This document shows positions 30,277 to 64,000 of a stretch of 64,000 bases of DNA, in pieces (position 1 is the first letter of the stretch; the number at the start of each line of letters is the position of its first letter). This DNA comes from Minisyncoccota bacterium (GTDB taxonomy: Bacteria; Patescibacteriota; Minisyncoccia; Phycocordibacterales; UBA9973), in NCBI GenBank assembly GCA_041665925.1, contig JBAYHW010000005.1, positions 13,819-77,818 on the forward strand. The letters run 5' to 3'. The notes under the pieces were generated by a model. The model saw only the letters and a program-made list of their open reading frames with translations, had not been told where the DNA came from and ran no database searches. Made by a program: the position numbers and the translations under genes.

Positions 30277-30290
30277 ACTCATACATGTAA

Positions 30291-30611: not shown

Positions 30612-30635
30612 GCGGCCTGGGGCTGTCAATCAAAA

Positions 30636-31056: not shown

Positions 31057-31059
31057 ATT

Positions 31060-31116: not shown

Positions 31117-31141
31117 TTCTTAGTATATTATATATGATAGA

Positions 31142-52286: not shown

Positions 52287-52294
52287 TGTTTTTA

Positions 52295-52370: not shown

Positions 52371-52383
52371 AATACTTAACACA

Positions 52384-52779: not shown

Positions 52780-52783
52780 GTTT

Positions 52784-53563
52784 TTAAATTGAATAACGTT
52801 TCACTTCCTTTATTTTAGCATTATTTTTCTCTAAAAGTTTGCCTACAGTCAGCTCGCCATCTTTGATGAATACTTGATCCAATAGAGTTTTTTCTTTGAA
52901 ATATGTAGCTATTTTACCATCTAGCATTTTTTTCTTTATATCTTCAGGCTTGTCTATAGAAGCTACTTCTTTGGTGAAAATTTCCTCCATGGTTTTCTTA
53001 ACCTCTTCTGTGATTTCTTCTCTAGACATGTATTCTGGTTTCATCGCAGTAATGTGCATAGCGACATCTTTCGCTAGATCTGCATTGCCACCTTCCAGAG
53101 AAACAATAACTCCTGTTTTGTTATTGTGAACGTAATTTCCCAAAACCGATCCTGAAACTTCAAATGCCTCACCTAAGATAATATTTTCACCAGTTTTTTG
53201 TATTACGGGATCAATCATATCTTTAGCAGAGGTCTTCATTTTTTCTACTCCGTTTTGAAAGGCTTCATTTGTAAGTTTGGTGAGCAGGGTAGAGAAGTCT
53301 TCATTTCTAGCAACGAAATCAGTTTCACAATGTAGTGAGACAAGTACAGCTTTGCCTCCATCCATCTTTATAGAGACTCGGCCATCCTTAACTTCTCGGC
53401 TACCTTTCTTCTCCGCAATGTCAGAGCTAGTCTTTTTCAATATAGCCAGTGCTTTATTCATGTCACCTTCAGCTTCTTCCAAGGCGCGTTTACACTGCAT
53501 TACTGAAATACCAGTAGCATCACGAAGTTCCTTAACTTGTTCTGTGGTTATTTGTATAGACAT
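52784..53563 (-). CDS. tsf: Elongation factor Ts
   Basis: N-terminal UBA-like LRDATGISVMQCKRALEEAEGDMNKALAIL and the EF-Ts core. rpsB-tsf synteny. Confidence 0.9.
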   Translation of the reverse strand: MSIQITTEQVKELRDATGISVMQCKRALEEAEGDMNKALAILKKTSSDIAEKKGSREVKDGRVSIKMDGGKAVLVSLHCETDFVARNEDFSTLLTKLTNEAFQNGVEKMKTSAKDMIDPVIQKTGENIILGEAFEVSGSVLGNYVHNNKTGVIVSLEGGNADLAKDVAMHITAMKPEYMSREEITEEVKKTMEEIFTKEVASIDKPEDIKKKMLDGKIATYFKEKTLLDQVFIKDGELTVGKLLEKNNAKIKEVKRYSI

Positions 53564-53568
53564 ATATT

Positions 53569-54294
53569 TTAAGCTTTTTTTAGAGGTGCACTTGTTTGAC
53601 CTTCTTTATAAGCATCTCGTATTGCTTCGGCAAAAAATTTAATAGAAGGTATTCCTGAATCATTAGCTACAATAGGGTAATCTATACCCTTGATATTAGA
53701 GTCTGAATTAACTAAAGCAATCACTGGGATACCTGATTTTCTGGCTTCTGTTGCCGCAATGTGTTCACTTTTAGCATCTACGACAAACAATGCATCAGGG
53801 GCCTTTTTTAAACCAAGTAAGCCCGTGTAATATCTGGCCAGTTTTTCCATTTTCTTCGCCATAACCACTCTTTCTTTTTTCGTATATTTATCTAGTCCGC
53901 CTGTCGCAGTATCCTTCTGGTAGTTTTCAAGTTCTAAAATTCTCTTTTTGATTTCTGTGAAGTTAGAGAGGGTGCCTCCTATCCAGCGTTCAGTAACATA
54001 CGGCATGTTTAAAGATTCAGCAATATTTTTTGTTGCGACTTTGGCCTCTGGCTTTGTGCCCACGAAAAGAACGGTTTTGTTTTGAGCACCGAGATTCTTT
54101 ATAAACAAAGCGGCTTCATCCAAGAGAGCACTCGTTTTTTCTAGGTTTATAATGTCACCTTTGTTCTTAGTGGTGTATATATACGAAGAAACTGAAGGGT
54201 GTCGGCGTGTTTTACTGTAGCCATAATGAGCCCCAGCTGCGAACATTTGTTCCACTACAGAATCGTTTTCTTTGGCGTTTTTGACTTTTTGCAT
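53569..54294 (-). CDS. rpsB: 30S ribosomal protein S2 (bS2)
   Basis: MQKVKNAKENDSVVEQMFAAGAHYGYSKTRRHP aligns to the S2 N-terminus. The start ATG at 54294 lies 6 nt after a consensus promoter (TTGCAA-17 nt-TATATT). The track ORF extends a further 69 codons upstream without support. Confidence 0.85.
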   Translation of the reverse strand: MQKVKNAKENDSVVEQMFAAGAHYGYSKTRRHPSVSSYIYTTKNKGDIINLEKTSALLDEAALFIKNLGAQNKTVLFVGTKPEAKVATKNIAESLNMPYVTERWIGGTLSNFTEIKKRILELENYQKDTATGGLDKYTKKERVVMAKKMEKLARYYTGLLGLKKAPDALFVVDAKSEHIAATEARKSGIPVIALVNSDSNIKGIDYPIVANDSGIPSIKFFAEAIRDAYKEGQTSAPLKKA

Positions 54295-54333
54295 AGGGAT
54301 AATATAGCAGAAAGCGGGACCTTTTGCAAATTT
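54295..54333 (-). promoter_or_regulatory. Consensus sigma70 promoter TTGCAA-17 nt-TATATT placed 6 nt upstream of the rpsB ATG (leaderless configuration)
   Basis: Minus strand reads tttgcaaaaggtcccgctttctgctatattatccctATG. Confidence 0.6.
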
Positions 54334-54391
54334 TATAGAAAAGTTGGAAATGAATTTTTGTCCTTTGACCAAAAGACTTTTTTCGGGTAAG

Positions 54392-55645
54392 ATGAGCGAT
54401 ATGAGACAATCTAAACTTTTTACAAAAACAAGGAAAGAAGCACCTGCAGACGAAGTGTCCAAGAATGCTGAGCTTCTTATTCGGGCTGGTTTTGTCCACA
54501 AGGAAATGGCTGGTGTGTACAGTTATTTGCCCCTTGGATTAAGAGTTTTAAAGAAAATTGAAAATATCATTAGGGAAGAAATGGATAAGGTTGGGGGGCA
54601 AGAAGTTCTCATGTCTACTTTTCAGCCGAAAGAAAATTGGGAGAAAACTGGTCGTTGGAATGACTTAGATGTTTTATATAAAGTTTCTGATGCGTCAGGG
54701 CACGAGCTTGCTCTTGGTCCTACTCACGAAGAAATTGTGGTTCCAATTTTAAAAAATTACATTTCTTCTTATAAAGATTTTCCTGTGGCTGTGTATCAAA
54801 TTCAAAACAAATTTCGCATGGAGTTACGTTCTAAATCTGGAATTTTAAGAGGCAGGGAATTTATGATGAAAGACATGTATTCCTTTCATACTTCACAGGA
54901 AGACTTTGAAAATTTCTATGAAAAAATGAAAGAAGTTTATAAGACTATTTTCAAGAGATCCGGCGTTGGACACATCACCTATATGACTTTTGCTTCAGGG
55001 GGAACATTTTCAAAATATTCTCATGAATTTCAGACGATCACTTCTGCCGGTGAGGATACTATATATGTAGATGAAGAGCAGGCAATAGCCGTAAATAAAG
55101 AAGTTCTAGATGGCGAAGTTTTGGCTCAGCTTGGTTTAAACAAAGAAAAGTTAGTGGAACATAAAGCCATAGAAGTTGGTAATATTTTTGATTTAAAAAC
55201 CAAATATTCAGCACCTTTTGACCTATCTTTTACCGACGACAAGGGCGAAAAGCATACTGTTTTAATGGGTTGTTATGGTATTGGGCTGGGCCGGCTAATG
55301 GGGACAGTGGTAGAAGCTTTGGCCGACGATAAAGGAATAATCTGGCCAGAATCTATTGCTCCCTATGCTGTGCATCTTTTAGCTTTAGGTGAAGATGAGG
55401 CTGTTTTAAGTGAAGCAAATAAAATCTATGAAAGTTTAGTGAAAGCTGGCATTGAAGTTTTGTTTGATGATCGCACTGGGTTGTCAGCCGGAGAAAAATT
55501 TTCAGATGCTGACTTACTTGGGATACCATTTAGAGCAGTAGTGTCAGCACGAAGTATCAAAGAAAATGGGATTGAGTTGAAAAAAAGAACGGAAGAAAAA
55601 GGAAAAGTGATAACCCTTGATGAATTAATAAAGCATGTTCGATAA
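54392..55645 (+). CDS. proS: Prolyl-tRNA synthetase (compact form)
   Basis: N-terminus MRQSKLFTKTRKEAPADEVSKNAELLIRAGFV, class II motifs and an anticodon-binding domain. The start is the ATG at 54392 or 54401. Confidence 0.85.
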   Translation: MSDMRQSKLFTKTRKEAPADEVSKNAELLIRAGFVHKEMAGVYSYLPLGLRVLKKIENIIREEMDKVGGQEVLMSTFQPKENWEKTGRWNDLDVLYKVSDASGHELALGPTHEEIVVPILKNYISSYKDFPVAVYQIQNKFRMELRSKSGILRGREFMMKDMYSFHTSQEDFENFYEKMKEVYKTIFKRSGVGHITYMTFASGGTFSKYSHEFQTITSAGEDTIYVDEEQAIAVNKEVLDGEVLAQLGLNKEKLVEHKAIEVGNIFDLKTKYSAPFDLSFTDDKGEKHTVLMGCYGIGLGRLMGTVVEALADDKGIIWPESIAPYAVHLLALGEDEAVLSEANKIYESLVKAGIEVLFDDRTGLSAGEKFSDADLLGIPFRAVVSARSIKENGIELKKRTEEKGKVITLDELIKHVR

Positions 55646-56681
55646 ATTTTACAAATTAATTTCTAACGACATCGGCATAGACTTAGGTACTTCGAATACC
55701 TTGGTGTATTTAAAAGGGCACGGCATAGTTATCAACGAGCCTTCAGTTGTGGCGGTGAATATTAAAACGAATCAAATTTTAGCAGTTGGGACTAAAGCTA
55801 AGGAGATGCTTGGGAGAACTCCTGGACACATTAAAGCTATTCGTCCCCTTGTAGACGGAGTTATTTCAGACTTTGAGGTGACGGAAGAAATGTTGGCTTA
55901 CCTTATCAATAAGGCGGACAAAGTTTCTAAAAAATTAGCTAGACCTCGGGTTTTAGTAGGAGTACCTTCTGGGACGACAAACGTGGAGACACGTGCTGTT
56001 TATGATGCGGCAAGAAGTGCTGGAGCGAGAGAAGTTTTTCTCGTAGAAGAACCTATGGCGGCAGCTATCGGGGTTCGTCTTCCTATTAAAGATCCCGTCG
56101 GATCTATGATTATAGATATTGGTGGAGGTACTACAGATATAGCAGTTATTTCTTTAGGAGGAATTGTGAAATCAAAAAATTTAAAGATTGCAGGAGACCG
56201 CTTGAACAACGACATTATTGCTTATATGCGGGATGAATTTAAAATCTTGGTCGGGGAGAGGACAGCGGAAATGGTAAAAATTGCTATTGGTTCTGTGATT
56301 CAAGGAGAATATATGGAGACTGAAGTTCACGGGCGAGATTTACTTACTGGTCTTCCTCGCGAAGTTGTCGTGACAGATTCCGATATTCGAGAAGCTTTGT
56401 CAGTTTCTATTAAAGGTTTAGTTGAAGGTGTAAAAGATATGCTAGAAACTATTCCTCCAGAAATTTTGTCCGATATAATGCACAGAGGGATCACTTTATC
56501 TGGTGGCGGAGCACTTTTGCCAGGACTTGATCAATTACTCGGCCGAGTTCTAAAAATTCCAGTTTATGTCGTGGAAGATCCTCTGTCAGCTGTGGCTCGA
56601 GGCACTGGAGTTATTTTAGACGATATACCTCTTTATAAAGATGTTTTGATAGGTAATCAAGATGAGTTACCTCCTAGATAA
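55635..56681 (+). CDS. mreB: Rod shape-determining protein MreB
   Basis: Actin-fold motifs IGIDLGTSNT, VGVPSGTT and DIGGGTTD. Confidence 0.92.
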   Translation: MFDKFYKLISNDIGIDLGTSNTLVYLKGHGIVINEPSVVAVNIKTNQILAVGTKAKEMLGRTPGHIKAIRPLVDGVISDFEVTEEMLAYLINKADKVSKKLARPRVLVGVPSGTTNVETRAVYDAARSAGAREVFLVEEPMAAAIGVRLPIKDPVGSMIIDIGGGTTDIAVISLGGIVKSKNLKIAGDRLNNDIIAYMRDEFKILVGERTAEMVKIAIGSVIQGEYMETEVHGRDLLTGLPREVVVTDSDIREALSVSIKGLVEGVKDMLETIPPEILSDIMHRGITLSGGGALLPGLDQLLGRVLKIPVYVVEDPLSAVARGTGVILDDIPLYKDVLIGNQDELPPR

Positions 56682-57453
56682 AAAAATAAAACAAAAGAAA
56701 ATTTTTAGAATCACCCTTGGTGTCGGGGCTTTGTTGATTTTATTTTTTTTCCGTTCTGGAATTTTTAGCGGGCTATCATACATAAGTCAGGGGGTTTTCC
56801 ACCCTGTTTTCCTAGTGGGGAATGATCTCGGTGGAAAATTAAAAAATCTTAGTTCATATTTTTATTCAAAAAATTCTCTCACCCTAGAAAACCAAGACTT
56901 AAAAACAAAATTACTCACCGAAGAAATGCGAATTGCCAATTACAATACTCTTTTAGCCGAGAATGAAAACTTGAAAGAAATTTTAGGGAGGAAAAATTCA
57001 AAATCTCCTATGGTCTTGGCTGCTATTTTAGCAAAACCAAACCAAAGTCCTTACGATATCCTAACTATTGATATTGGCACAGCGGAAGGAGCAACAGTAG
57101 GGCAAATAGTATTTGCTTTAGGGAACATACCCATTGGTCGTATTGCGGAAGTTTACCCCAATTCTTCAAAAGTAATTTTATTCTCTAGTGCCGGCGAAAA
57201 AACGCAAGTTTCAGTAGCTGGGCAAAATCTTTTTTTAGAATTAGTTGGGCGTGGAGGAGGGAATTTCGAAATGATTATGCCGAAAGATTTAACTTTAGAG
57301 AAAGGAGTACAAGTTGTATTACCTGGGATTAATTCTTATGTCGTAGCCATAAATGAGACAATAATTTCCGATCCTCGTAATCCTTTTACCAAAGCGCTAC
57401 TTGTTAGCCCTGTTAACATACAAAACCTTAAATTTGTGGAAGTAGAAATTTAA
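56662..57453 (+). CDS. mreC: Rod shape-determining protein MreC
   Basis: N-terminal TM, a coiled coil and beta-barrel domains. It follows mreB. Confidence 0.8.
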   Translation: MSYLLDKKIKQKKIFRITLGVGALLILFFFRSGIFSGLSYISQGVFHPVFLVGNDLGGKLKNLSSYFYSKNSLTLENQDLKTKLLTEEMRIANYNTLLAENENLKEILGRKNSKSPMVLAAILAKPNQSPYDILTIDIGTAEGATVGQIVFALGNIPIGRIAEVYPNSSKVILFSSAGEKTQVSVAGQNLFLELVGRGGGNFEMIMPKDLTLEKGVQVVLPGINSYVVAINETIISDPRNPFTKALLVSPVNIQNLKFVEVEI

Positions 57454-57525
57454 CCTGTCCCGTACTAAATTTTTGATTAAAACAAATGACCATTAAAAAT
57501 AAAAGTTTAAAATTTTAGTACTGGG

Positions 57526-58815
57526 ATGTTTTTCAAAATAGAAAAAAAATTAAAGCGGGGTTTAGGACGAGTTGGAGTTTTAAAAACTCCGCATGGAGAA
57601 ATACATACCCCTGCTTTTGTGGCTGTGGGCACTAAGGCTACCGTGAAGTCGCTTAACCCTGAGCAGGTACGAGAGACTGGTACAGAAGTAGTTCTTGGTA
57701 ATACTTACCATTTATATCTTCAGCCGGGAGATGAAATAGTTCGGGATGCGGGAGGTATAGGAAAATTTATGAACTGGCCAGGGCCGACGATGACTGACTC
57801 GGGAGGTTTTCAGGTTTTTTCACTGGGAGTTGCCTATGGAAAAGATATCTCAAAGGTAACAAAAATTACAGATCCATCGCTTTTAATTCCAGAACGTTTT
57901 GATGATTCGGACGCCCCAAGGCTCGCGAAAATAGGACAAGATGGAGTTTCGTTTAAGTCACATCTTGATGGCTCAATTCACTACATTACTCCAGAAAAAT
58001 CAATTCAGATTCAGCACAACCTCGGCGCAGATATTATTTTTGCTTTTGATGAATGCACTAGCCCGGCGGAAGATTTGCGTTATCAGGAAGAAGCCTTAGA
58101 GCGTACGCATCGTTGGGCAGAGCGAAGTTTGAAAGAACACAAGAAGCTGGGGGAGGAAAAATCTTTCTCTGCGGGGTCGCTGTCTGTGCTTGATAGCACA
58201 GCGCTGCCTCTCGGCTCGTCAGCCTGCGAGACACCCCACAAAGAAAATTTTTCCTCCCCAGCTTTGTTTGGAATTGTGCAAGGTGGACGAGATGAAAATT
58301 TGAGAAAAAAATCAGCGGAGTTTATTGGGAGTTTAGATTTTGATGGTTTTGGTATTGGTGGATCTTTCGCTAAAGAAGATATGTCTACGGCCGTGAAATG
58401 GGTAAATGAAATTCTTCCGGAAGAAAAGCCACGTCATCTGCTCGGCATAGGGGAGCCGGAAGATTTATTTATGGGGATAGAAAATGGTGTAGATCTTTTT
58501 GATTGTGTTTTACCCACTCGCTTGGGTAGAAATGGGACTCTGTATACCAAAAGGGGCAAAATAATAATAATGAATACGAAATTCCGAAATGATTTTTCTC
58601 CGGTTGAAGAAGACTGTGCGTGCTATTCGTGTAAGAATTATACAAAGAGCTATATAGCTCACCTTTTTCACGGCAAAGAAATGCTAGCGGGAACTTTAGC
58701 TTCTATTCATAATCTATATTTTATCGTGAATTTAGTGAATAAAATAAGACAATCAATTTTAGATGATAAATTCTTTGAATTTAAAGAGAAATTCTTGAAA
58801 GAGTATACTAGATAA
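57526..58815 (+). CDS. tgt: Queuine tRNA-ribosyltransferase (tRNA-guanine transglycosylase) with an internal insertion
   Basis: TIM-barrel motifs (GNTYHL, FAFDEC, LLGIGEPEDL) and the zinc site CxCxxC...H (CACYSCKNY). Confidence 0.88.
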   Translation: MFFKIEKKLKRGLGRVGVLKTPHGEIHTPAFVAVGTKATVKSLNPEQVRETGTEVVLGNTYHLYLQPGDEIVRDAGGIGKFMNWPGPTMTDSGGFQVFSLGVAYGKDISKVTKITDPSLLIPERFDDSDAPRLAKIGQDGVSFKSHLDGSIHYITPEKSIQIQHNLGADIIFAFDECTSPAEDLRYQEEALERTHRWAERSLKEHKKLGEEKSFSAGSLSVLDSTALPLGSSACETPHKENFSSPALFGIVQGGRDENLRKKSAEFIGSLDFDGFGIGGSFAKEDMSTAVKWVNEILPEEKPRHLLGIGEPEDLFMGIENGVDLFDCVLPTRLGRNGTLYTKRGKIIIMNTKFRNDFSPVEEDCACYSCKNYTKSYIAHLFHGKEMLAGTLASIHNLYFIVNLVNKIRQSILDDKFFEFKEKFLKEYTR

Positions 58816-58841
58816 GCTATAATATATAGGTTCTGAACAAA

Positions 58842-60896
58842 ATGAAACAAAAAAGGGAACTCAGAGAATTAATGAGGAGATTTATTTTCTTAGGTGTTTT
58901 TGTGTTTTTGTTATTTTTATCTTTGAACACTAAAGCTTTTGCTTCAGAAACACTGGGAAGCATTGATACAGCATATAAATATGCTTGGGGAGAAAATATT
59001 GGTTGGATAAATTTCGGCTGCGATGATTGTAATGTGGAAATCACAGATACCGCTATCACTGGGTATGCGTGGAGTTCTCAATTTGGCTGGATAAACTTAA
59101 ATTCAAGTACTGCTGGGGTGTTGAATACTGCCACGGGAGTTCTTTCAGGCCGTGCCTGGAGTTCAAATTTGGGTTGGATTGATTTTGATGGAGTAACAAT
59201 AAATACGAGCGGAGAATTGCTCGGCTATGCCACTCTAGATTCTGACAGTAGTCAGATAAGTTTCAATTGTGTGAATGGAAGTTCGTGCGCATCTGCTGAT
59301 TTTAAAGTAAAGACAGACTGGCGACCAGCAAGTGTTAGGACAAGTGATTCTGGTGATGGGGGTTCAAGTGGAAGCAGGCCGAATACTCCCGCAAACCCTC
59401 CTGCTAATCCACCCATTCCACCTCAAGCTAATCCACCACCTTTTTCTGGGATAACTAATAATGTTTCTGACATCATAAATAAAGCTTCTGATTTTATTTC
59501 TTATCTGTTTAATGGAAAAGAAAAACCATTACCTTCGGCGATAGTTGAAGTTCCGAAGATTGCTCCATTTGCGTTCCATGCCGAGTGGAATCTTTTGCCA
59601 ATGAGAGCTATAAATTCTTTCGTCTTCGCTCCTCTACCATATGAGATCCGTATCCTTGCAAGTAAATTCCCTGAACTTGATAAAACTCTAAAAGAAGTCG
59701 GCGTAGAAAGATTTTCTGATGTGAATAAATTAACAGGAGTGAGCTTAAACGTTCCGGGGTTGGCAGATATTTTAAACACAACAATTAAAAATGTTGGACA
59801 GAAAGAATTAGCCGAGCTAGAAAAAATACAAGGCGTGACGCTCGGCGTACCGGGAGTTTCTGGCGCTCCAGGAAAACTTCCAGGGAATATCGGCGTGCCA
59901 GGTATCTCTGGGATAGGCGGAGCATTACCAAGCAGTGTCGGCACAGGGAAGATTGCACTTATCGAAGGGTTACCAATAGCGAAGTTTACTCTAACTGCGA
60001 AGAAAAATTTACCATCTGAATTCGTTTTTGCTCGGGGAGCAGGGGAGCTAGTAGATTTGAACGTTGCGCTTTCTGTTGGAGATAGAGGGGAAGTGACTCA
60101 ACGTATTTCTTCTTTGCCAGGTAAAATTTTAAAACTCGTTGTTAAGCCCATAAGCAGTGCTAGAAGTGTGACAGGGTATATCGTGTTTAAAGCACCGACT
60201 CCAAGGGTAGCACAAAATTCAATTCTTCGTTCTTCGCTCACTGCGTCAGCACTTTTCTCTATGAATGATTTGGTTCAGACTATTTCCGACCCTATTCCAG
60301 TTGAGAAAAAATTAGTTTTGTCTTCTTTTGAATATACAGACCCCGACAAAGATGGTATCTATACTGCAGATGTAGTGTCACCCGTGGTTCCAGGAGAATA
60401 TGAAATCATTACCGTTATTGATTATATAGATCCAGTCTTAGGTTCTCGCAAGATGAGTATGGTGACAGTCATAGACCCTGAGGGATATGTATTTGAGAAA
60501 AATAATGGGAAGGAGACACGCATTCCTTCGGCTATTGTGTCTCTTTATGCTCTTAATTTATCTACTAAACAATACGAACCCTGGAAAGCAAAAGACTACA
60601 GCCAAGAAAATCCGCAAATTACAGACATCAGGGGGACATATTCATTCCTAGTACCCGAAGGTTCATATTATTTCCACGTAGAAGCACCAGGATATGAGCC
60701 CTATGAGGGTAAAGCTTTTGTCGTCGTAGAGGGTAGTGGTGTCCACCAAAACATAGAGCTTAAATCAGGGTCGAATTGGCTTGCACTGCTTGACTTCCAA
60801 ACGGTTCTTCTGATTGTTGTGTGCTTATTATTAGTGTATAATTTATATCGTAATAACTTGCGAGATAAATTAAATAAATTATTAAATAAAAAATGA
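58842..60896 (+). CDS. Large secreted, C-terminally membrane-anchored protein (684 aa) with N-terminal tandem GW-aromatic repeats, a Pro-rich linker and a CarboxypepD_reg-like domain
   Basis: Signal peptide. Repeats AWGENIGWINF, AWSSQFGWINL and AWSSNLGWIDF. The PANPPANPPIPPQANPPP linker. A C-terminal TM segment. Confidence 0.55.
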   Translation: MKQKRELRELMRRFIFLGVFVFLLFLSLNTKAFASETLGSIDTAYKYAWGENIGWINFGCDDCNVEITDTAITGYAWSSQFGWINLNSSTAGVLNTATGVLSGRAWSSNLGWIDFDGVTINTSGELLGYATLDSDSSQISFNCVNGSSCASADFKVKTDWRPASVRTSDSGDGGSSGSRPNTPANPPANPPIPPQANPPPFSGITNNVSDIINKASDFISYLFNGKEKPLPSAIVEVPKIAPFAFHAEWNLLPMRAINSFVFAPLPYEIRILASKFPELDKTLKEVGVERFSDVNKLTGVSLNVPGLADILNTTIKNVGQKELAELEKIQGVTLGVPGVSGAPGKLPGNIGVPGISGIGGALPSSVGTGKIALIEGLPIAKFTLTAKKNLPSEFVFARGAGELVDLNVALSVGDRGEVTQRISSLPGKILKLVVKPISSARSVTGYIVFKAPTPRVAQNSILRSSLTASALFSMNDLVQTISDPIPVEKKLVLSSFEYTDPDKDGIYTADVVSPVVPGEYEIITVIDYIDPVLGSRKMSMVTVIDPEGYVFEKNNGKETRIPSAIVSLYALNLSTKQYEPWKAKDYSQENPQITDIRGTYSFLVPEGSYYFHVEAPGYEPYEGKAFVVVEGSGVHQNIELKSGSNWLALLDFQTVLLIVVCLLLVYNLYRNNLRDKLNKLLNKK

Positions 60897-61261
60897 TTGA
60901 AAACAATAAACGTGCTTTATATCTTATAATTTTTGGTGTTCTTCTTGTTGGTAATGTTTTCTTTGCGCTTAATTATTTTACAACCAAGGCAGAGCTGCAA
61001 GAAATACAATCTACTACTACAAAAGCTGTATTAAATGAAAAAGTTGTCAATTTCGCTTCAATGTTTATTAAACAAGTCTTACAAGCGGATAAAGAAGTGG
61101 ACTTTGAGACGCGCTTGTCGCTAGAGAATGCTGTGCGTGATTTAAAAGATGAGCAAATTATGGCAGAATGGCAGAAATTTGTCGGCTCGAAGACAGAAGC
61201 TGAGGCTCAAAATAGTGTGAAGAGGCTTCTCGGTATCTTGATAGGCAAAATTCAGAAATAA
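60893..61261 (+). CDS. Hypothetical membrane-anchored protein (122 aa)
   Basis: ORF with an N-terminal TM. No family recognised. Confidence 0.4.
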   Translation: MIENNKRALYLIIFGVLLVGNVFFALNYFTTKAELQEIQSTTTKAVLNEKVVNFASMFIKQVLQADKEVDFETRLSLENAVRDLKDEQIMAEWQKFVGSKTEAEAQNSVKRLLGILIGKIQK

Positions 61262-61304
61262 GGTTTTTGGAGTGGTTATTGCTTAAATAAAAAACTTTTT
61301 CAAT

Positions 61305-62105
61305 ATGGATAGCATAACAAAAATAGTATTATTTAAAAATAAACAGATACGCAAGACACTTTATAATCATGAGTGGTGGTTTTCTGTAGCAGATGTATGT
61401 GAAGCTCTCACTGATAGTATTGATTCTGGAGCTTATTGGAGAAAACTAAAACAAAGGCTAACAGAAGAAGGTAGTGAAGTCGTGACATTTTGTCACGGGT
61501 TGAAATTATTGGCTCCAGACGGAAAAATGAGAGAAACGGATTGTGCTGATACAGAAGGAATATTTAGGATAGTTCAGTCTATTCCATCACCCAAAGCCGA
61601 ACCTTTCAAGCGTTGGTTAGCTAAAGTAGGCTATGAAAGAATACAAGAAATTGAAAATCCGGAGCTTGCCACAAAAAGGACCAGAATGCTTTACAAGTTA
61701 AAAGGGTATAGTGATGATTGGATAGAAAAAAGAATGCGAGGCATCGTTATTCGCGAGGAATTAACTGATGAATGGAAAAATAGAGGAGCAAAAGAAGATA
61801 GAGATTATGAAATTTTAACAGCAGAGATTTCAGAAGCTACATTTGGAGTTACTCCGAGTGAATATAAAAAATTAAAGGGTTTAAAGCGCCAAAATTTGCG
61901 TGATCATATGGATGATTTTGAATTGATTTTTAATATGCTCGGAGAAAGAGCTACTACAGAAATACATCGTACTGAAAATTCTAAAGGAGTTTTTAAATTA
62001 AAAGCTGATGCTAAAGCAGGGGGCAACATTGCTGGTGGCGCTCGCAAAAAACTTGAAAAAAGATTAAGGCGTTCAATTGTAACCAAGAAGAATTTTTTAA
62101 AATGA
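61305..62105 (+). CDS. BRO-N domain protein (phage antirepressor / DinD-like)
   Basis: N-terminal KTLYNHEWWFSVADVCEALT matches the Bro-N signature (WFVAKDVAKALG). Confidence 0.65.
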   Translation: MDSITKIVLFKNKQIRKTLYNHEWWFSVADVCEALTDSIDSGAYWRKLKQRLTEEGSEVVTFCHGLKLLAPDGKMRETDCADTEGIFRIVQSIPSPKAEPFKRWLAKVGYERIQEIENPELATKRTRMLYKLKGYSDDWIEKRMRGIVIREELTDEWKNRGAKEDRDYEILTAEISEATFGVTPSEYKKLKGLKRQNLRDHMDDFELIFNMLGERATTEIHRTENSKGVFKLKADAKAGGNIAGGARKKLEKRLRRSIVTKKNFLK

Positions 62106-64000
62106 AGTTTATATTTAACAAAAAAATAACTTATATATTCGCAGCGATAGTGCTGTCAGCCTTTTTCGGCAAGATAGTTTTCGCAACTCCGCCTACTTCT
62201 TATTACACCCCAGGCGAAACTTTAAATCCTACTTGTTTACCAACTGACACAAACTGCGATGTGGCAGCGCCCCTTACCTCAAGCAATATTAGTGACACTG
62301 CATATGGAGCGGGATGGGATACTGACACGACTCATGCTCCTTCTAAAAATGCCGTCTATGACAAAATTGAAACTGTTGTCGGCAGTGCACACGACGCACT
62401 CACCTTAGGCACAGCAAACGGACTTTCACTTTCAACACAAGCACTTAGTCTCGCGCTCGCTTCTACTTCTACGACGGGCGCGCTTTCAGATACTGACTGG
62501 GACACTTTTAATAATAAACAAAATGCATTTGATTTTACTCTTTCAGGAACAACAGGCCAAACTTATACTCTCCCTTCAACAACAGCAACCCTCGCCCGCA
62601 CTGACGCCGCGCAGACTTTTACGGGATTACAAACTTTTTCTACAAGTCCGACGAGCCCGGGTAGCGGAGCAAACACAGAAAGGTGGGGTGCTGGGGCAAG
62701 CACTAACAGCACAACATATTCATTGGCCTTAGGAAATAGTGCAGCTGTATCTGGTAATTATGGTGTTGCAGTTGGATATAGTGCCTCGGCAACAGGTGAT
62801 TCAGGAGTTGCAGTTGGTAGGCAGACTACTGCTTCGACGTATGGTGTCTCATTAGGCAATCAATCAAATGCAGGGGCAGATGCAGTTGCAATAGGTAGAT
62901 TAGCGACCGCAACAGGTCCACATGCAATAGCTATAGGTCGCGAATCCGCAAGCGCATATCGAGAATCAATTGCATTTCGATCTTCATCATCGGCCGATTA
63001 CCAATTTCGAGCGGATATGACAAGTGATTGGTACGCCGGTAGTGGGCTGGGTTATTGGCAGTTGCAGCCAGTACCAGCTACAGGTACGGATACTGCAGGC
63101 AAGAACATGATGCTTTCTGGCGGTAAGGGTACAGGTAACGCTATCGGAGGTTCCTTAATTTTTTCAACTTCTGATGCCGGAGCTTCGGGTTCTACTCTAC
63201 AATCTTTGACTCCGAAGATGACGATACTGCCGAGTGGATATGTGGGAATCGGAACCACAACACCTGTTGAAAAACTACACCTTTCCACAGACGGCGCAGA
63301 TGTATCTCAGCTGATTTCTGCTTATGGTACAGGATATGTGCCCAGTTTGAATGTTTATAACGCTAGAGGAACAGAGGCTTCGCCCAGCGCTTCGCAACAA
63401 AATGATGTTTTGGGTCAAGTAGCTTTTCAGGGATTCGATACAGCTCGAAGTACGGGTGCATTAATTAAAGGAGAGTCGGATGGTATCTGGGCATCAGGAG
63501 GAAATAGTTCAGATAATCCTTCGAGGTTGACTTTTTGGACAACCTTAGATGGAGATGGTACTCCAGCCGAGAGAATGAGAATAGATAGTAATGGACGTGT
63601 CGGTATAGGTACCACCTCTTTATTAAGTGGCAATGCTTTAACAATAGCAAGTGGTGACATCGGGACAAGTGGCGGAAGAAGAATATACAATGCAGATGGT
63701 GATTCTGGTGGTGTTACGATCTCTGCAGCCCTTCAACTTCATAGTTATTATGGAATGCATTTTTATTCCAGCGAACACGTATATGCTTCTCAGTTGGAAA
63801 GGATGACTTTAACCAATACAGGGAACTTCGGTATCGGAGACACTACTCCCGACTATCTTCTCGACGTCGCAGGAACTGCGGGGTTTGATGGACTGGTAAC
63901 CGCAACGGGTTTTTCCGGACCGCTTACGGGTAATGTTACTGGTAATCTTACCGGAAATGCAGATACCGTCACCGGACTTTCTGTGGTTTCTGGAAAAACA
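62102..64000 (+). CDS. Large secreted tail-fibre-like protein with repeated xGIGTTxP motifs (partial, runs off the 3' window edge, over 633 aa). It is absent from the ORF track.
   Basis: The ATG at 62102 overlaps the BRO stop (ATGA). The reading frame stays open to position 64000. Signal peptide MKFIFNKKITYIFAAIVLSAFFGKIVFA. Repeats VGIGTTTPVEKLHLS, VGIGTTSLLSG and FGIGDTTPDYLLDV are typical of phage tail-fibre or tailspike beta-helical proteins. Confidence 0.6.
   Translation, partial: MKFIFNKKITYIFAAIVLSAFFGKIVFATPPTSYYTPGETLNPTCLPTDTNCDVAAPLTSSNISDTAYGAGWDTDTTHAPSKNAVYDKIETVVGSAHDALTLGTANGLSLSTQALSLALASTSTTGALSDTDWDTFNNKQNAFDFTLSGTTGQTYTLPSTTATLARTDAAQTFTGLQTFSTSPTSPGSGANTERWGAGASTNSTTYSLALGNSAAVSGNYGVAVGYSASATGDSGVAVGRQTTASTYGVSLGNQSNAGADAVAIGRLATATGPHAIAIGRESASAYRESIAFRSSSSADYQFRADMTSDWYAGSGLGYWQLQPVPATGTDTAGKNMMLSGGKGTGNAIGGSLIFSTSDAGASGSTLQSLTPKMTILPSGYVGIGTTTPVEKLHLSTDGADVSQLISAYGTGYVPSLNVYNARGTEASPSASQQNDVLGQVAFQGFDTARSTGALIKGESDGIWASGGNSSDNPSRLTFWTTLDGDGTPAERMRIDSNGRVGIGTTSLLSGNALTIASGDIGTSGGRRIYNADGDSGGVTISAALQLHSYYGMHFYSSEHVYASQLERMTLTNTGNFGIGDTTPDYLLDVAGTAGFDGLVTATGFSGPLTGNVTGNLTGNADTVTGLSVVSGKT

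What the first reader, a model, noticed from the sequence alone, without database searches (positions are those of the whole stretch)
61305..64000. BRO-N antirepressor-like gene overlapping (ATGA) a >630-aa secreted tail-fibre-like ORF that the track missed: prophage or phage-derived segment
The product of 61305-62105 has the Bro-N signature (EWWFSVADVCEALT). The following ORF (62102 to beyond 64000, open to the window edge) has a signal peptide and multiple [VF]GIGTTxP-x-KL motifs, with Gly/Thr/Ser-rich beta-solenoid-like sequence typical of phage tail fibres or tailspikes. This could be a cryptic prophage, or a domesticated fibre used for host attachment.
Basis: partly seen in the sequence, partly recalled or inferred. 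Interest (0 to 1): 0.6.

Follow-up and report, generated by a model that had tools for sequence, protein, structure and literature searches.

The report
Chromosomal adhesin fibre, not a prophage
What looked like a prophage fragment is a conserved chromosomal operon of an ultra-small (CPR/Paceibacterota) bacterium encoding a 1,579-residue phage-tail-fibre-like surface fibre, probably used to grip other cells, with an unrelated, unusually conserved DinD-like DNA-binding gene inserted just in front of it.

Summary
Window 61305-62105 encodes a 266-aa Bro-N protein whose TGA overlaps (ATGA) the ATG of an ORF that runs off the window. An identical public contig shows this ORF is 1,579 aa.

The prophage reading fails. 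Upstream genes are housekeeping (S2, ProRS, MreB, MreC, Tgt). Downstream lie a membrane protein and an Orn/Arg decarboxylase. There is no integrase, capsid or terminase.

Four other Paceibacterota genomes carry the same locus: MreBC, a ~670-aa envelope protein, a ~121-aa membrane protein, then a fibre. All lack the Bro-N gene. Their fibres share a ~140-aa N-terminus but have different bodies and tips, with or without an S74 chaperone.

In the PDB, fibre aa 330-633 matches only the Bdellovibrio "mosaic adhesive trimer" (MAT) fibres (E 9e-7 to 4e-4).

The Bro-N protein belongs to the DinD-like PADLOC candidate defence family PDC-S13 (E 3e-117). This family is overwhelmingly cellular, about 73% identical across more than 20 phyla, and often sits in CRISPR-Cas or R-M loci.

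Best reading: a MAT-like host-attachment fibre locus carrying a solo DinD-like insertion. Fibre and Bro-N functions are inferred, not shown.

The parts
58842..60896 (+). 684-aa envelope protein. It has an N-terminal signal/TM segment, 'GWINF' repeats, a CarboxypepD_reg-like domain and a C-terminal TM segment. It is the first gene of the fibre operon and a conserved partner of the fibre gene.
   Evidence: ORF. Pfam CarboxypepD_reg E=1.9e-6, below the cutoff. Orthologues at 60-68% identity lie directly upstream of the fibre locus in L083, L093, L095 and L096. Shorter homologues occur in L094 and L099. A promoter-like site (TTGAAA-17-TATAAT, 11/12) lies just upstream, at L001 7491-7519 = window 58795-58823.
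60893..61261 (+). 122-aa protein with one N-terminal TM segment. Its start overlaps the 684-aa gene by 4 nt. It is a conserved partner of the fibre gene.
   Evidence: ORF. Orthologues at 63-70% identity hold the same position in L083, L093, L095 and L096.
61262..61304 (.). 43-nt spacer upstream of the Bro-N gene. It forms the left edge of the ~840-bp insertion relative to genomes that lack the gene.
   Evidence: In the syntenic relative L083, a 29-nt spacer joins the 121-aa gene directly to the fibre ATG. The corresponding gaps are 40 nt in L093 and 25 nt in L095.
61305..62105 (+). 266-aa Bro-N + alpha-helical C-domain protein of the DinD-like / PADLOC PDC-S13 family. It is a solo accessory gene inserted into the fibre operon.
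   Evidence: Pfam Bro-N E=9.9e-13. phrog_15286 full length E=1.9e-89. PADLOC PDLC04920 (PDC-S13) E=2.6e-117 over aa 1-265, and E. coli DinD cross-hits the same model at E=2.2e-16. The AF2 model has pLDDT 76. Its only significant PDB fold matches are Deinococcus DdrC, E=2.6e-6. The gene is absent from the same site in L083, L093, L094 and L095.
62102..64000 (+). 5' 1,899 nt (aa 1-633) of a 4,740-nt gene for a 1,579-aa secreted mosaic fibre protein. It is MAT-like and of the non-S74 type. The gene continues 2,841 nt beyond the window edge.
   Evidence: Open frame. Full length from the identical contig L001, 10798-15537. 412 homologues at E<=0.001, mostly 900-2,700 aa. Those that carry names are from CPR bacteria, and many have Peptidase_S74. 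The only PDB hits to aa 330-633 at E<1 are Bdellovibrio MAT fibres: 8ol4 at 8.6e-7, 8ond at 1.4e-5 and 8ojn at 3.8e-4.
62102..62185 (+). Predicted signal peptide (aa 1-28, MKFIFNKKITYIFAAIVLSAFFGKIVFA).
   Evidence: It is the only strongly hydrophobic 15-aa window in the protein. AF2 places a helix at aa 7-22. The start residue is conserved in homologues. No signal-peptide predictor was available.
62186..62521 (+). Conserved N-terminal domain (aa ~29-140) with a conserved Cys45/Cys52 pair and the AYGxxWD..T.APSKNAVYDKIE and GALSDTDWDTFNNK motifs. It is the proposed cell-proximal anchoring module.
   Evidence: It is shared at the N-terminus, at about 40-72% identity, by 28 of the 120 listed homologues. 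Those homologues are 878-2,378 aa long and have unrelated downstream bodies. There is no Pfam or PHROG hit here.
62702..62992 (+). YadA-head-like (Hep_Hag) left-handed beta-roll repeats, aa ~201-297.
   Evidence: Pfam YadA_head E=2.4e-9. NCBIfam YadA model matches aa 201-297 at E=1e-6, far below its cutoff. PDB 3s6l (Hep_Hag) E=9.5e-5. This is the only confidently modelled stretch, with pLDDT 74-90 at aa 200-270.
63242..63277 (+). GIG motif copy 1 (VGIGTTTPVEKL, aa 381-392), preceded by TPKMTILPSGY. It corresponds to the capping-loop motif described for MAT fibres.
   Evidence: It aligns in register with Bd3182 (TPRMTIDDVGRVGVGTTAPTSALHV) and Bd2133. The capping-loop consensus is described in PMC10769870. 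I equate the two motifs by resemblance and spacing; the residue-level match to the crystallographic loops was not checked.
63599..63634 (+). GIG motif copy 2 (VGIGTTSLLSGN, aa 500-511), preceded by ERMRIDSNGR. This copy is degenerate: it lacks the Pro and the KL.
   Evidence: It lies within the phrog_9942 tail-fibre match, aa 416-614.
63827..63862 (+). GIG motif copy 3 (FGIGDTTPDYLL, aa 576-587), preceded by ERMTLTNTGN.
   Evidence: It aligns with Bd2439 (EAMRISNTGNVGIGTTTTTEKLNV).

Best explanation
Two unrelated things sit side by side in a normal stretch of a Candidatus Paceibacterota (CPR) chromosome.

(1) A conserved envelope operon. The genes run 684-aa membrane-anchored protein, 122-aa membrane protein, fibre, 392-aa membrane protein. 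The main product is a secreted 1,579-aa mosaic fibre.

By homology, the fibre is an elongated homotrimer. It combines YadA-head-like beta-rolls with phage-tail-fibre / Bdellovibrio-MAT-type beta-helical segments, each closed by a VGIGTTxPxxKL capping loop.

Its conserved ~110-aa N-terminal domain probably docks the fibre to the cell envelope. The co-conserved 684-aa and 122-aa proteins may be the docking partners.

The variable body and the non-S74 C-terminal tip project outward and bind a ligand on another cell. For an episymbiotic CPR bacterium, the most likely ligand is a surface structure of its host.

Across related genomes the locus stays fixed while the fibre body and tip are exchanged. 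That is the pattern expected of a specificity determinant.

(2) A ~840-bp solo insertion, present in this lineage only, placed between the 122-aa gene and the fibre gene. It encodes a DinD-like protein: a Bro-N domain plus a helical domain, matching PADLOC candidate PDC-S13.

This protein is most likely a DNA-binding protein. By analogy with E. coli DinD and Deinococcus DdrC, it may act on damaged or foreign DNA or on RecA filaments. It is not the antirepressor of a resident prophage.

Its stop codon overlaps the fibre start codon. Fibre translation in this genome is therefore probably coupled to it.

Shown: gene structure, synteny, the insertion, and family memberships by HMM. Inferred: trimeric state, surface anchoring, host binding, and Bro-N biochemistry.
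For: Not a prophage.
- Precomputed Pfam on the extended contig shows Acyl_transf_3, EF-Ts, S2, ProRS, MreB, MreC and Tgt upstream, and an Orn/Arg decarboxylase downstream.
- Ten other window genes sampled are ThrRS, SMC, a DacA-type PBP, RNase R, DnaG, RpoD, a DsbA-like protein, a GT2, a UvrD/PDDEXK helicase-nuclease and one protein with no Pfam hit.
- No PHROG structural, integration or packaging family is hit by any of the seven proteins scanned in the operon and immediately downstream.

Synteny.
- L083/L084, L093, L094 and L095 come from contigs of 81-378 kb. They share S2-ProRS-MreB-MreC-(Tgt)-[envelope genes]-fibre-...-Orn/Arg decarboxylase. Three of them carry the ~670-aa and ~121-aa gene pair; L094 has shorter homologues instead.
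- Spacers of 25-40 nt occupy the site where the window has Bro-N.

Variable fibre at a fixed locus.
- N-terminal ~140-180 aa are 52-57% identical between orthologues. The rest is unalignable or mosaic.
- S74 is present in L093, L094 and L095 and absent in the window and L083.
- 28 of the 120 listed homologues share the N-terminal domain at their own N-terminus.

Fibre nature.
- phrog_9942 tail fibre, E=1.7e-21.
- YadA_head and YadA/Hep_Hag PDB hits.
- The only PDB hits for aa 330-633 at E<1 are Bdellovibrio MAT fibres Bd2439, Bd2133 and Bd3182, at E=8.6e-7, 1.4e-5 and 3.8e-4, with the GIG motif in register.
- MAT architecture and surface or prey-binding role are described in PMC10769870.
- The fibre gene's high GC (0.49) is driven by GC2 (0.57, Gly/Thr/Ala/Ser-rich). 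Its GC3 (0.375) lies within the neighbours' range.

Bro-N gene.
- PDLC04920 PDC-S13, E=2.6e-117. E. coli DinD is PDLC04919 PDC-S13 and cross-hits PDLC04920.
- More than 579 genomic loci against 6 viral loci kept by the same exact-peptide scan.
- Among 58 co-oriented upstream neighbours there are roughly 15-20 matches to defence families: Cas7, Cas6e-type, Cas4, Cas12a, ResIII, methyltransferases, SNF2+PLD, HsdR and RhuM.
- Fold match to the DNA-break-binding protein DdrC (PMC11347143).
- DinD is LexA-regulated and modulates RecA.
Against: - No experiment or expression data exist for this locus.
- The trimeric beta-helical architecture is inferred. The monomer AF2 model of aa 1-633 is poor (pLDDT 47), and its Foldseek hits to MAT fibres are not significant (E 0.03-0.5).
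- Homology of the CPR N-terminal domain to the Bdellovibrio MAT N-terminal domain could not be tested.
- Paceibacterota are uncultivated, so 'host attachment' rests on lifestyle inference from other CPR.
- The three closest Bro-N relatives examined (L096, L099, L101) also lie next to fibre-like genes. Complete functional independence of the two genes is therefore not proven.
- No LexA box or other conserved upstream element was found for the Bro-N family. The 'DNA-damage' label is borrowed from E. coli.
Confidence: 0.66

Rival explanations
1. Cryptic prophage remnant or phage-derived cassette. On this reading, Bro-N and the fibre are the last surviving genes of a degraded prophage, or of a small phage-derived mobile module that carries both.
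For: - Both domains are phage hallmarks: Bro-N (PF02498), weak hits to PHROG anti-repressor families, and phrog_9942 tail fibre.
- The aa 1212-1286 module is 73% identical to stretches on two viral contigs.
- The three closest Bro-N relatives examined lie next to fibre-like genes in other CPR genomes: L096, L099 and L101.
- Bro-N synonymous sites are less diverged than those of the flanking genes. Four-fold site identity is 0.42-0.51 for Bro-N against 0.25-0.30 for the flanks, which suggests lateral movement.
Against: - There are no other phage genes, integrase or att repeats within 10 kb upstream or 4.3 kb downstream.
- The fibre gene is present without Bro-N at the same syntenic site in four genomes, so the two genes were not acquired together.
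- The fibre's GC3 is host-like.
- Bro-N / fibre proximity is rare in broader samples. It was seen in 2 of 76 genome loci and 3 of 46 metagenome loci, and none of those 3 is adjacent.
- The Bro-N family is overwhelmingly cellular.
Confidence: 0.07
2. The Bro-N/DinD-like protein is functionally wired to the fibre operon in this Paceibacterota sub-clade. It could be a DNA-binding regulator, or a sensor that couples stress or phage attack to fibre expression, rather than an unrelated hitch-hiker.
For: - The ATGA overlap implies co-transcription and translational coupling. The same AAAATGA junction occurs in L096.
- Four Bro-N genes at 85-92% identity sit next to fibre genes in two different arrangements. 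Two lie upstream of the fibre (window, L096) and two lie downstream (L099, L101).
- Bro-N is a DNA-binding fold. This rests on established knowledge and on the DdrC match.
Against: - Four related genomes run the same operon without the gene.
- Elsewhere the family has no conserved partner. It sits in CRISPR-Cas, R-M, T4SS, RecA and housekeeping contexts.
- Fibre proximity is rare in wider samples.
- The shared context among the closest relatives can be explained by common descent or by recombination between fibre loci.
Confidence: 0.12
3. The fibre is a general surface structure and not a host-recognition adhesin. Candidates are an S-layer-associated spacer, a biofilm or particle adhesin, or a protective decoy against phages.
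For: - Function is untested.
- YadA-type heads and beta-helical fibres serve many adhesive roles.
- The locus lies beside the cell-shape genes mreBC.
- The C-terminus is a long Pro/Glu/Ser-rich low-complexity tail rather than a recognisable lectin-like tip.
Against: - Rapid replacement of body and tip at a fixed locus, against a conserved N-terminus, is the signature of a specificity determinant. Phage receptor-binding proteins and MAT fibres show the same pattern (PMC10769870).
- A purely structural protein would be expected to be conserved along its whole length.
Confidence: 0.12
4. The fibre is the receptor-binding fibre of a tailocin or extracellular contractile injection system, or is borrowed by a phage satellite.
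For: Tail-fibre PHROG hit. eCIS fibres are similarly mosaic (abstract of PMC12923769).
Against: - No sheath, tube, baseplate or spike genes occur in the window or within 7 kb downstream. None occurs in the four syntenic loci either.
- A Sec-type signal peptide is not expected for a cytoplasmically assembled tail fibre.
Confidence: 0.03

Closest known systems
Bdellovibrio bacteriovorus mosaic adhesive trimer (MAT) fibres, non-S74 subgroup such as Bd2133, Bd1334 and Bd2439 (Caulton et al. 2024, PMC10769870)
   Same: - Signal peptide followed by a family-conserved N-terminal domain.
- A long mosaic stalk with repeated ...R/KMTI..G.VGIGTT.P...L.V motifs that align in register with those in the solved MAT chains.
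- Exchangeable C-terminal tips, with S74 and non-S74 versions inside one family.
- Cellular rather than viral, in a bacterium that lives by attaching to other bacteria.
- MAT fibres are the only PDB sequence hits to aa 330-633 at E<1.
   Different: - Very distant lineage (CPR, presumably a monoderm-type envelope).
- Homology of the N-terminal domain to the MAT N-domain is untested.
- Contains YadA-head-like beta-roll blocks.
- Sits at one conserved locus beside mreBC with two co-conserved envelope genes, whereas B. bacteriovorus HD100 has 21 MAT genes.
- No CPR entry appears in the paper's table of MAT proteins from other organisms.
- No localisation or binding data.
Phage tail fibres and tailspikes with the S74 intramolecular chaperone (T5 L-shaped fibre pb1, K1F endosialidase)
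   Same: Beta-helical fibre segments with the same capping-loop motif. phrog_9942 'tail fiber' E=1.7e-21. Many CPR homologues end in Peptidase_S74, PF13884. T5 fibre chains follow the MAT chains in the weak Foldseek list.
   Different: - This protein has no S74 domain.
- It has a Sec-type signal peptide.
- It is encoded in a housekeeping chromosomal context with no virion genes.
Trimeric autotransporter adhesins (YadA / Hep_Hag head repeats)
   Same: Two blocks of YadA_head-type repeats, at aa ~200-297 and ~976-1098. An obligate-trimer adhesive beta-roll is implied.
   Different: There is no C-terminal YadA anchor or beta-barrel translocator. The NCBIfam YadA model scores 28 bits against a cutoff of 750. 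The organism probably lacks an outer membrane.
E. coli DinD (PcsA) and PADLOC phage-defence candidate PDC-S13
   Same: - Same two-domain layout: a Bro-N-type N-domain plus a helical C-domain, about 270 aa.
- Both fall under PDC-S13 models and cross-hit each other's model.
- Association with R-M and CRISPR loci.
   Different: - A different subfamily: PDLC04920 rather than PDLC04919.
- Direct BLASTP similarity to DinD is marginal (E=0.016).
- No LexA box upstream.
- Far more conserved than expected for an accessory gene: about 73% mean identity across phyla.
- Neither defence activity nor RecA interaction has been tested for this subfamily.
Deinococcus radiodurans DdrC (DNA-break sensor and compaction protein)
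   Same: It gives the only significant PDB fold matches to the Bro-N protein model. They span both domains: E=2.6e-6, probability 1.0, about 250 aligned columns. The DdrC N-domain resembles the Dachshund-homology domain. The next-best hits for my model are also Dachshund/Ski domains.
   Different: Sequence identity is 13-16%, TM-score only 0.37-0.50 and rmsd high. DdrC is reported as Deinococcus-specific. The relationship is a lead and not an established homology.
Phage and baculovirus Bro / Ant antirepressors
   Same: The N-terminal Bro-N domain. Weak hits to PHROG anti-repressor families, E 7e-6 to 4e-3, for aa ~2-110 only. Fold matches to viral Bro-N and KilA-N proteins.
   Different: - The C-terminal domain is not an ANT, KilAC or pRha type domain; Pfam finds none.
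- There is no resident prophage or repressor.
- The family is overwhelmingly chromosomal.

Membership tests
Prophage / cryptic prophage | Phage structural, packaging or lysis genes adjacent (capsid, portal, terminase, tail tube) | tested here: not met
   Pfam and PHROG scans of seven proteins in the operon and immediately downstream (58842 onward, plus 7.2 kb beyond the window edge) find none. Precomputed Pfam annotation on the contig and a Pfam scan of ten further window genes also show none.
Prophage / cryptic prophage | Integrase plus attachment-site repeats, or a tRNA-flanked island boundary | tested here: not met
   No integrase or recombinase is present in L001. The nearest tRNA (Thr, 52295-52370) lies 9 kb upstream, with housekeeping genes in between. 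I did not run a dedicated att-repeat search.
Prophage / cryptic prophage | Segment absent from the same site in related genomes (an island) | tested here: not met
   The fibre and its two upstream partner genes are present at the syntenic site in L083, L093 and L095. L094 has shorter variants of the upstream genes. Only the ~840-bp Bro-N gene is variable.
Bro-N domain proteins (PF02498) | Match to the Bro-N HMM above the gathering score | tested here: met
   49 bits against a cutoff of 25.6, aa 15-107, E=9.9e-13.
Phage antirepressor (Ant-type) | Bro-N/KilA-N N-domain joined to an ANT, KilAC or pRha-type C-domain, encoded in a (pro)phage with a cognate repressor | tested here: not met
   No such C-domain is found in Pfam. 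PHROG anti-repressor hits cover only the N-domain. There is no prophage context.
DinD-like / PADLOC PDC-S13 | Full-length match to a PDC-S13 HMM | tested here: met
   PDLC04920 E=2.6e-117, aa 1-265 against model positions 1-267 of 286. E. coli DinD gives 2.4e-121 to PDLC04919 and 2.2e-16 to PDLC04920.
DinD-like / PADLOC PDC-S13 | Enrichment next to defence systems, the basis on which I understand PDC candidates were nominated (own knowledge) | tested here: met
   Across 58 co-oriented upstream neighbours the defence-family matches are Cas7 x3, CRISPR_assoc x2, Cas4 x2, Cas12a domains x1, ResIII x3, methyltransferases x3, SNF2+PLD x2, HsdR x1 and RhuM x1. Cas1, Cas2, Cas3, Cas5 and Cas8c families also occur in the loci. 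There is no defence gene next to the window copy itself.
DinD-like / PADLOC PDC-S13 | SOS (LexA) regulation as in E. coli dinD | tested here: not met
   The 200-nt upstream regions of 77 family members contain no GAAC-N4-GTTC and no CTGT-N8-ACAG. GTTC-N7-GTTC occurs twice, against 0.2 expected. LexA motifs of most of these phyla are unknown, so this is a weak test.
DinD-like / PADLOC PDC-S13 | Inhibition of RecA filaments, or anti-phage activity | not testable with these tools
   This needs biochemistry or phage challenge. The E. coli DinD-RecA link is cited.
Mosaic adhesive trimer (MAT) fibres | N-terminal signal peptide | tested here: met
   One hydrophobic segment at aa 9-28 ending in VFA, and an AF2 helix at aa 7-22. 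This rests on inspection, not on a dedicated predictor.
Mosaic adhesive trimer (MAT) fibres | A family-invariant domain of about 130 aa directly after the signal peptide | tested here: inconclusive
   A conserved ~110-aa domain in exactly that position is shared by 28 of the 120 listed homologues, which have different bodies. Its homology to the Bdellovibrio N-domain could not be tested. The profile search returned only short fragments, and the AFDB fold library was unavailable.
Mosaic adhesive trimer (MAT) fibres | Beta-helical stalk with repeated capping loops (V-G-x-small-x-x-P-x-x-x-L) | tested here: met
   Six motif copies, one of them degenerate. They align in register with the same motif in Bd3182, Bd2133 and Bd2439 chains, at E=8.6e-7 to 3.8e-4. 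The three-dimensional stalk itself is not confirmed, because the model is poor.
Mosaic adhesive trimer (MAT) fibres | Exchangeable C-terminal tip: S74 chaperone or an alternative domain | tested here: met
   The window protein and L083 lack S74. The orthologous-position fibres in L093, L094 and L095 carry PF13884. The C-terminal tip is shared with only 8 of 120 homologues.
Mosaic adhesive trimer (MAT) fibres | Trimeric fibre displayed on the cell surface that binds another cell | not testable with these tools
   Only a monomer AF2 model was possible (pLDDT 47). No localisation or binding data exist.
Trimeric autotransporter adhesin | C-terminal YadA membrane anchor (beta-barrel) | tested here: not met
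   Only head repeats match. The NCBIfam YadA_autotrans model scores 28 bits against a cutoff of 750.

The most novel reading that the evidence does not exclude
Paceibacterota (CPR) may carry, at a fixed chromosomal site beside mreBC, a MAT-like 'receptor-binding cassette'. Its body and tip would be swapped between lineages to change which host cell the epibiont can grip. That would make it the CPR counterpart of the Bdellovibrio prey-recognition fibres and a direct handle on CPR host range.

In one sub-clade, an ultra-conserved DinD-like DNA-binding gene has been captured into this cassette. There it might be functionally coupled to the fibre, for example by linking DNA-damage or phage sensing to fibre production.
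Probability: 0.12. Interest if true: 0.7.

Novelty: new member of a known kind. Interest (0 to 1): 0.4.

Why it matters
How uncultivated CPR bacteria recognise and hold on to their hosts is largely unknown beyond type IV pili in Saccharibacteria (abstracts).

A single, easily located locus (mreBC, envelope gene pair, fibre) with a conserved anchor and a hypervariable, phage-receptor-binding-like distal part is a concrete candidate for a host-specificity determinant. It could be surveyed across metagenomes and correlated with co-occurring hosts.

It would also extend the Bdellovibrio MAT concept (cellular use of phage-fibre architecture to bind other bacteria) to a very distant lineage.

Separately, the DinD-like PDC-S13 subfamily is an oddity worth attention. 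It is an accessory gene that is often embedded in defence islands. Yet about half of its residues are at least 90% conserved across more than 20 phyla, while synonymous sites are saturated. That points to a universally conserved target.

For annotation practice, the case shows that Bro-N plus 'tail fiber' does not equal prophage.

Tried and rejected
- **Prophage.** I extended the window by 7.2 kb using an identical contig and scanned neighbours with Pfam, PHROGs and NCBIfam. No phage genes turned up, so I rejected this reading.
- **Tailocin or eCIS fibre.** No sheath, tube or baseplate genes are present. Rejected.
- **Bro-N as a mobile element with defined ends.** Upstream and downstream DNA of 77 family members shows no conserved sequence (printout). 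Only the ORF is conserved. The mechanism of spread stays unknown.
- **SOS boxes upstream of the family.** None found.
- **'Always inserted inside operons'.** Co-orientation with neighbours is 84% upstream and 69% downstream, against a 73% background. This is not significant. Only the short downstream gap stands out: median 9 nt against a background of 27 nt.
- **General Bro-N / fibre linkage.** Seen in 2 of 76 genome loci and 3 of 46 metagenome loci, with none of those 3 adjacent. Rejected as a general rule.
- **Direct BLASTP and hhalign of the family against E. coli DinD.** Both were weak: E=0.016, and probability 1% with Neff 1.4. I relied on the PADLOC HMM cross-hits instead.
- **Monomer AF2 model of fibre aa 1-633.** pLDDT 47, usable only for aa 200-270. 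Its Foldseek hits are not significant.
- **Profile search with the fibre N-domain.** It returned only proteins shorter than 280 aa, probably fragments, with no informative names.
- **First large fibre alignment.** It failed.
- **Foreign origin of the fibre from its high GC.** Rejected: the excess lies at codon position 2, which reflects amino-acid composition, and not at position 3.

Full report
**1. The observation**

The window has an ORF at 61305-62105 (+) of 266 aa. Pfam assigns aa 15-107 to Bro-N, with E=9.9e-13 and 49 bits against a gathering score of 25.6. The DNA reads ...TTTTTAAAATGAAGTTT.... The Bro-N stop codon (TGA, 62103-62105) therefore overlaps an ATG at 62102.

Translation from 62102 to 64000 gives 633 codons without a stop. 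The ORF listing tool skips ORFs that run off an end of the source.

**2. Extending the window**

A look-up of the exact Bro-N protein returned a 36.7-kb ENA contig, locus L001. It is identical to window 51305-64000 at 12,696 of 12,696 bases and continues 7.2 kb further.

The open ORF is 4,740 nt and encodes 1,579 aa. After it come three genes:
- a 392-aa protein with an N-terminal TM segment and a weak DNRLRE-domain hit;
- a 467-aa Orn/Arg decarboxylase;
- a 335-aa protein of unknown function.

Upstream lie Acyl_transf_3, EF-Ts, S2, ProRS, MreB, MreC and Tgt. Next come a 684-aa protein with a signal peptide and C-terminal TM segment, and a 122-aa TM protein.

Ten other window genes sampled by Pfam are ThrRS, SMC, a DacA-type PBP, RNase R, DnaG, RpoD, a DsbA-like protein, a GT2, a UvrD/PDDEXK helicase-nuclease and one protein with no hit. 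NCBI names the source of the identical Bro-N protein as Candidatus Paceibacterota. No phage structural, packaging, lysis or integration gene is present.

**3. Synteny**

I looked up the contexts of four fibre homologues: P0121, P0136, P0160 and P0125. They sit on contigs of 81-378 kb.

All four show the same chromosomal neighbourhood: S2, ProRS, MreB, MreC, (Tgt), envelope genes, a large fibre gene, and further on an Orn/Arg decarboxylase. In three of them the envelope genes are a ~670-aa protein and a ~121-aa protein. The fourth, L094, has shorter homologues instead.

Protein identities to the window's genes are 60-68% for the 684-aa family, 63-70% for the 122-aa family and 70% for the 392-aa family.

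In these genomes only 25-40 nt separate the ~121-aa gene from the fibre ATG. L083 reads ...CAGAAATAG-29 nt-ATGCGATTTATATTTAATAAAAAAATA. The window has a 43-nt spacer, the 801-nt Bro-N gene, and then ATGAAGTTTATATTTAACAAAAAAATA.

The fibre locus is therefore a conserved chromosomal feature. The Bro-N gene is a solo insertion of about 840 bp, seen at this site only in the window's lineage among the five genomes compared.

**4. What the fibre is**

*Composition.* The protein is 50% Gly, Thr, Ala and Ser. It has one hydrophobic segment (aa 9-28, ending VFA) and two Cys pairs, at 45/52 and 1433/1443.

*Family hits.*
- YadA_head repeats at aa ~200-297, E=2.4e-9. YadA and Hep_Hag structures are hit for aa 173-295 and 976-1098.
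- phrog_9942 'tail fiber protein' for aa 416-652, E=1.7e-21 / 1.7e-19.
- With aa 330-633 as the query, the only PDB sequences at E<1 are three Bdellovibrio bacteriovorus fibre proteins. These are Bd2439 (8ol4, 8.6e-7), Bd2133 (8ond, 1.4e-5) and Bd3182 (8ojn, 3.8e-4).

The window has TPKMTILPSGYVGIGTTTPVEKLHL and Bd3182 has TPRMTIDDVGRVGVGTTAPTSALHV.

Caulton et al. [quoted passage not shown] Its features are:
- a signal peptide;
- an invariant N-terminal domain of about 130 aa, thought to sit at the cell surface;
- a meandering trimeric beta-helical stalk with capping loops;
- exchangeable tips, either S74-chaperone-terminated or not.

The fibres are displayed on the predator surface, and one member binds prey glycans. 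The full protein carries six copies, at aa 381, 500, 576, 837, 942 and 1183. The copy at aa 500 is degenerate.

The gene also contains internal direct repeats of 60-180 nt at 70-86% identity.

**5. The same logic in the CPR family**

Of 120 listed homologues, 28 share the N-terminal ~140 aa at their own N-terminus, at about 40-72% identity. They are 878-2,378 aa long and differ downstream. Many end in Peptidase_S74, PF13884.

At the syntenic locus itself, the fibres of L093, L094 and L095 carry S74. The window's fibre and that of L083 do not. Only the N-terminus, plus the C-terminus in the case of L083, aligns between them.

This is the pattern of phage receptor-binding proteins and MAT fibres: a fixed locus with a conserved proximal end and a swapped distal end. 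From it I infer a cell-anchored N-terminus, possibly docked on the co-conserved 684-aa and 122-aa envelope proteins, and a distal ligand-binding end.

Cultivated CPR bacteria are episymbionts that need adhesins. Host attachment is therefore the most likely role.

These steps are inferred, not shown. The monomer AF2 model is poor, with pLDDT 47 and only aa 200-270 confident. Its Foldseek list is headed by 14 MAT chains followed by the T5 fibre, but at non-significant E-values of 0.03-0.5.

I could not test whether the CPR N-domain is homologous to the Bdellovibrio N-domain. The MAT paper's table of relatives from other organisms lists no CPR entry. I found no paper in the library linking CPR with S74 or tail-fibre-domain proteins. 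NCBI already labels several homologues 'tail fiber domain-containing protein'.

**6. What the Bro-N gene is**

It matches phrog_15286 (function unknown) over its full length, E=1.9e-89. Anti-repressor PHROGs are hit only weakly, and only in the N-domain.

Against PADLOC it matches PDLC04920 'PDC-S13' at E=2.6e-117. E. coli DinD is PDLC04919 'PDC-S13' (2.4e-121) and cross-hits PDLC04920 at 2.2e-16. DinD also matches a model of type I specificity subunits. dinD-domain genes inside type I R-M operons are noted in PMC9881135.

DinD is LexA-regulated and modulates RecA filaments.

The AF2 model has pLDDT 76 and shows a Bro-N beta/alpha domain plus a helical C-domain. Its only significant PDB fold matches are Deinococcus DdrC, at E=2.6e-6 and spanning both domains. 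DdrC is a DNA-break-sensing protein reported to have no homologues outside Deinococcus. Viral Bro-N and KilA-N proteins match the N-domain.

**7. Distribution and evolution of the Bro-N family**

*Abundance.* All 8,000 scored candidates were hits, and the top 120 are 80-100% identical. Genome contigs gave at least 579 loci. The best 80 are 70-84% identical and come from CPR phyla, Acetothermia, Planctomycetota, Omnitrophota, Nitrospinota, Thermodesulfovibrionia, Proteobacteria, Bacteroidota, Bdellovibrionales and others. Metagenomes gave at least 589 loci. The same exact-peptide scan kept only 6 loci in viral contigs, best 60%.

*Conservation.* Across 77 genes:
- mean amino-acid identity is 0.73;
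- four-fold degenerate sites are saturated, at identity 0.31;
- GC3 follows the flanking GC, r=0.79;
- 64 of 266 columns are invariant and 132 are at least 90% conserved;
- identity within CPR (0.738) equals identity between CPR and non-CPR (0.725).

The protein is thus under very strong purifying selection and has moved between phyla, though mostly not recently. One caveat applies. The loci were picked by exact peptide words from this query, so they are the most similar members of the family.

*Neighbours.* No neighbour is conserved. About a quarter to a third of upstream neighbours are defence genes. These include insertions between cas7 and cas4 of type I-C loci, and between cas6e-type and cas1 genes. 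No LexA boxes or conserved flanks were found.

**8. Are Bro-N and the fibre linked?**

The three closest Bro-N relatives examined also sit next to fibre-like genes:
- L096 (92% identity): 668-aa, 123-aa, 112-aa, Bro-N, then the same AAAATGA junction into a 980-aa fibre-like gene;
- L099 (89%): a 1,502-aa fibre-like gene, then Bro-N, then a 363-aa GWINF protein;
- L101 (85%): a 2,699-aa S74 fibre, a 48-aa ORF, then Bro-N.

Their Bro-N genes are less diverged at four-fold sites than the flanking genes, 0.42-0.51 against 0.25-0.30. This suggests exchange among fibre loci.

Other close relatives, however, lie beside RecA/SSB (L102) or T4SS genes (L103). In wider samples, fibre-like neighbours are rare: 2 of 76 genome loci and 3 of 46 metagenome loci, with none of those 3 adjacent.

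I therefore treat the pairing as hitch-hiking within a recombining locus. Functional coupling remains a minor rival, at about 0.12.

**9. Verdict**

The fibre is a new, CPR member of a known kind: MAT-like or tail-fibre-domain cellular adhesins. The Bro-N gene is a member of a catalogued but uncharacterised DinD-like defence-candidate family.

Interest is moderate. The locus offers a testable candidate for CPR host specificity, and the DinD-like family's extreme conservation is unexplained.

Noticed in passing
window 61305-62105; loci L002-L081 and L104-L183: The DinD-like Bro-N subfamily (PADLOC PDLC04920) is extraordinarily conserved for an accessory gene. Mean amino-acid identity is 73% across more than 20 phyla. 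132 of 266 columns are at least 90% conserved, four-fold sites are saturated, and GC3 has adapted to each host. Identity within CPR equals identity between CPR and non-CPR. The sample is biased towards close relatives by the search method.
   Followed up: yes
L009, L011, L042, L057 (about 8001-8800 in each); L061, L070, L076: Homologues of the Bro-N gene sit inside CRISPR-Cas operons at the boundary between the effector and adaptation modules. In type I-C loci (L009, L011, L042) they lie between cas7 and cas4. In L061, L070 and L076 they lie between a cas6e-type gene and cas1. In L057 the gene follows a 1,339-aa protein and precedes cas4-cas1; one of the 58 upstream neighbours carries Cas12a-type domains and this is probably that protein. 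Others lie next to SNF2+PLD, ResIII, HsdR or methyltransferase genes.
   Followed up: partly
window 61305-62105 (model m6432f61c0df9): The AF2 model's only significant PDB fold matches are Deinococcus DdrC (8u0g, 7qvb, 7udi; E about 3e-6, both domains aligned). DdrC is described in the literature as lacking homologues outside Deinococcus. This may be an unreported remote link between DdrC and the Bro-N/DinD superfamily. TM-scores are only 0.37-0.50.
   Followed up: partly
window 29700-31140: A stretch of about 1.4 kb is GC-rich (0.49 against a typical ~0.39). It lies between the SMC gene and a PBP/PGA_cap gene. It has no ORF of 100 aa or more outside the first ~190 nt, where a 124-aa minus-strand ORF overlapping the end of the SMC gene reaches in. 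It has no Rfam match at gathering score or at E<=0.1. Its nature is unknown.
   Followed up: partly
window 58842-61261, and L083, L093, L095, L096: Two genes always travel with the fibre gene. One is a ~670-aa protein with N-terminal 'GWINF' repeats, a CarboxypepD_reg-like domain and a C-terminal TM anchor. The other is a ~121-aa single-TM protein. Shorter GWINF proteins, together with cohesin- or dockerin-like proteins, replace them in L094 and L099. They may form the fibre's base or assembly partners.
   Followed up: partly
L001 14890-15537 (fibre aa ~1400-1579, beyond the window edge): The fibre ends with a conserved W..A.A.NG...C......C.TK...AL motif (Cys1433/Cys1443). A Pro/Glu/Ser/Ala-rich low-complexity tail of about 130 aa follows, with no TM segment or sortase signal. 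The motif recurs at the C-termini of other CPR homologues in alignment A3.
   Followed up: no
L083 15782-22401: In the syntenic relative, two IS200-type (Y1_Tnp) transposase genes, an HSP20 gene and a 1,279-aa protein of unknown function are inserted between the fibre locus and Tgt / Orn-Arg decarboxylase. The region downstream of the fibre is thus a rearrangement hotspot. L084, from another sample, also has a serine recombinase 9 kb upstream.
   Followed up: no
L102 6001-9765: A 266-aa Bro-N homologue lies two genes upstream of a recA gene that carries an intein with a LAGLIDADG domain, followed by ssb. This is suggestive given that E. coli DinD acts on RecA filaments, but it is a single case.
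   Followed up: no
window 52295-52370 (-) and 51156-52382 (-): tRNA-Thr(TGT) lies inside the 5' end of the mechanically listed 408-aa GTG-start ORF (an Acyl_transf_3 protein). The gene caller on contig L001 also lists a 408-aa product. The true start of that gene is probably downstream of the tRNA.
   Followed up: no
L001 10798-15537: The fibre gene contains four families of intragenic direct repeats, 59-179 nt long and 70-86% identical. They encode the ...GGSLIFSTSDAGASG.TLQSLTPKMTILPSG.VGIG... and GIGDTTPDYLLDVAGT modules. They are possible substrates for module shuffling.
   Followed up: partly
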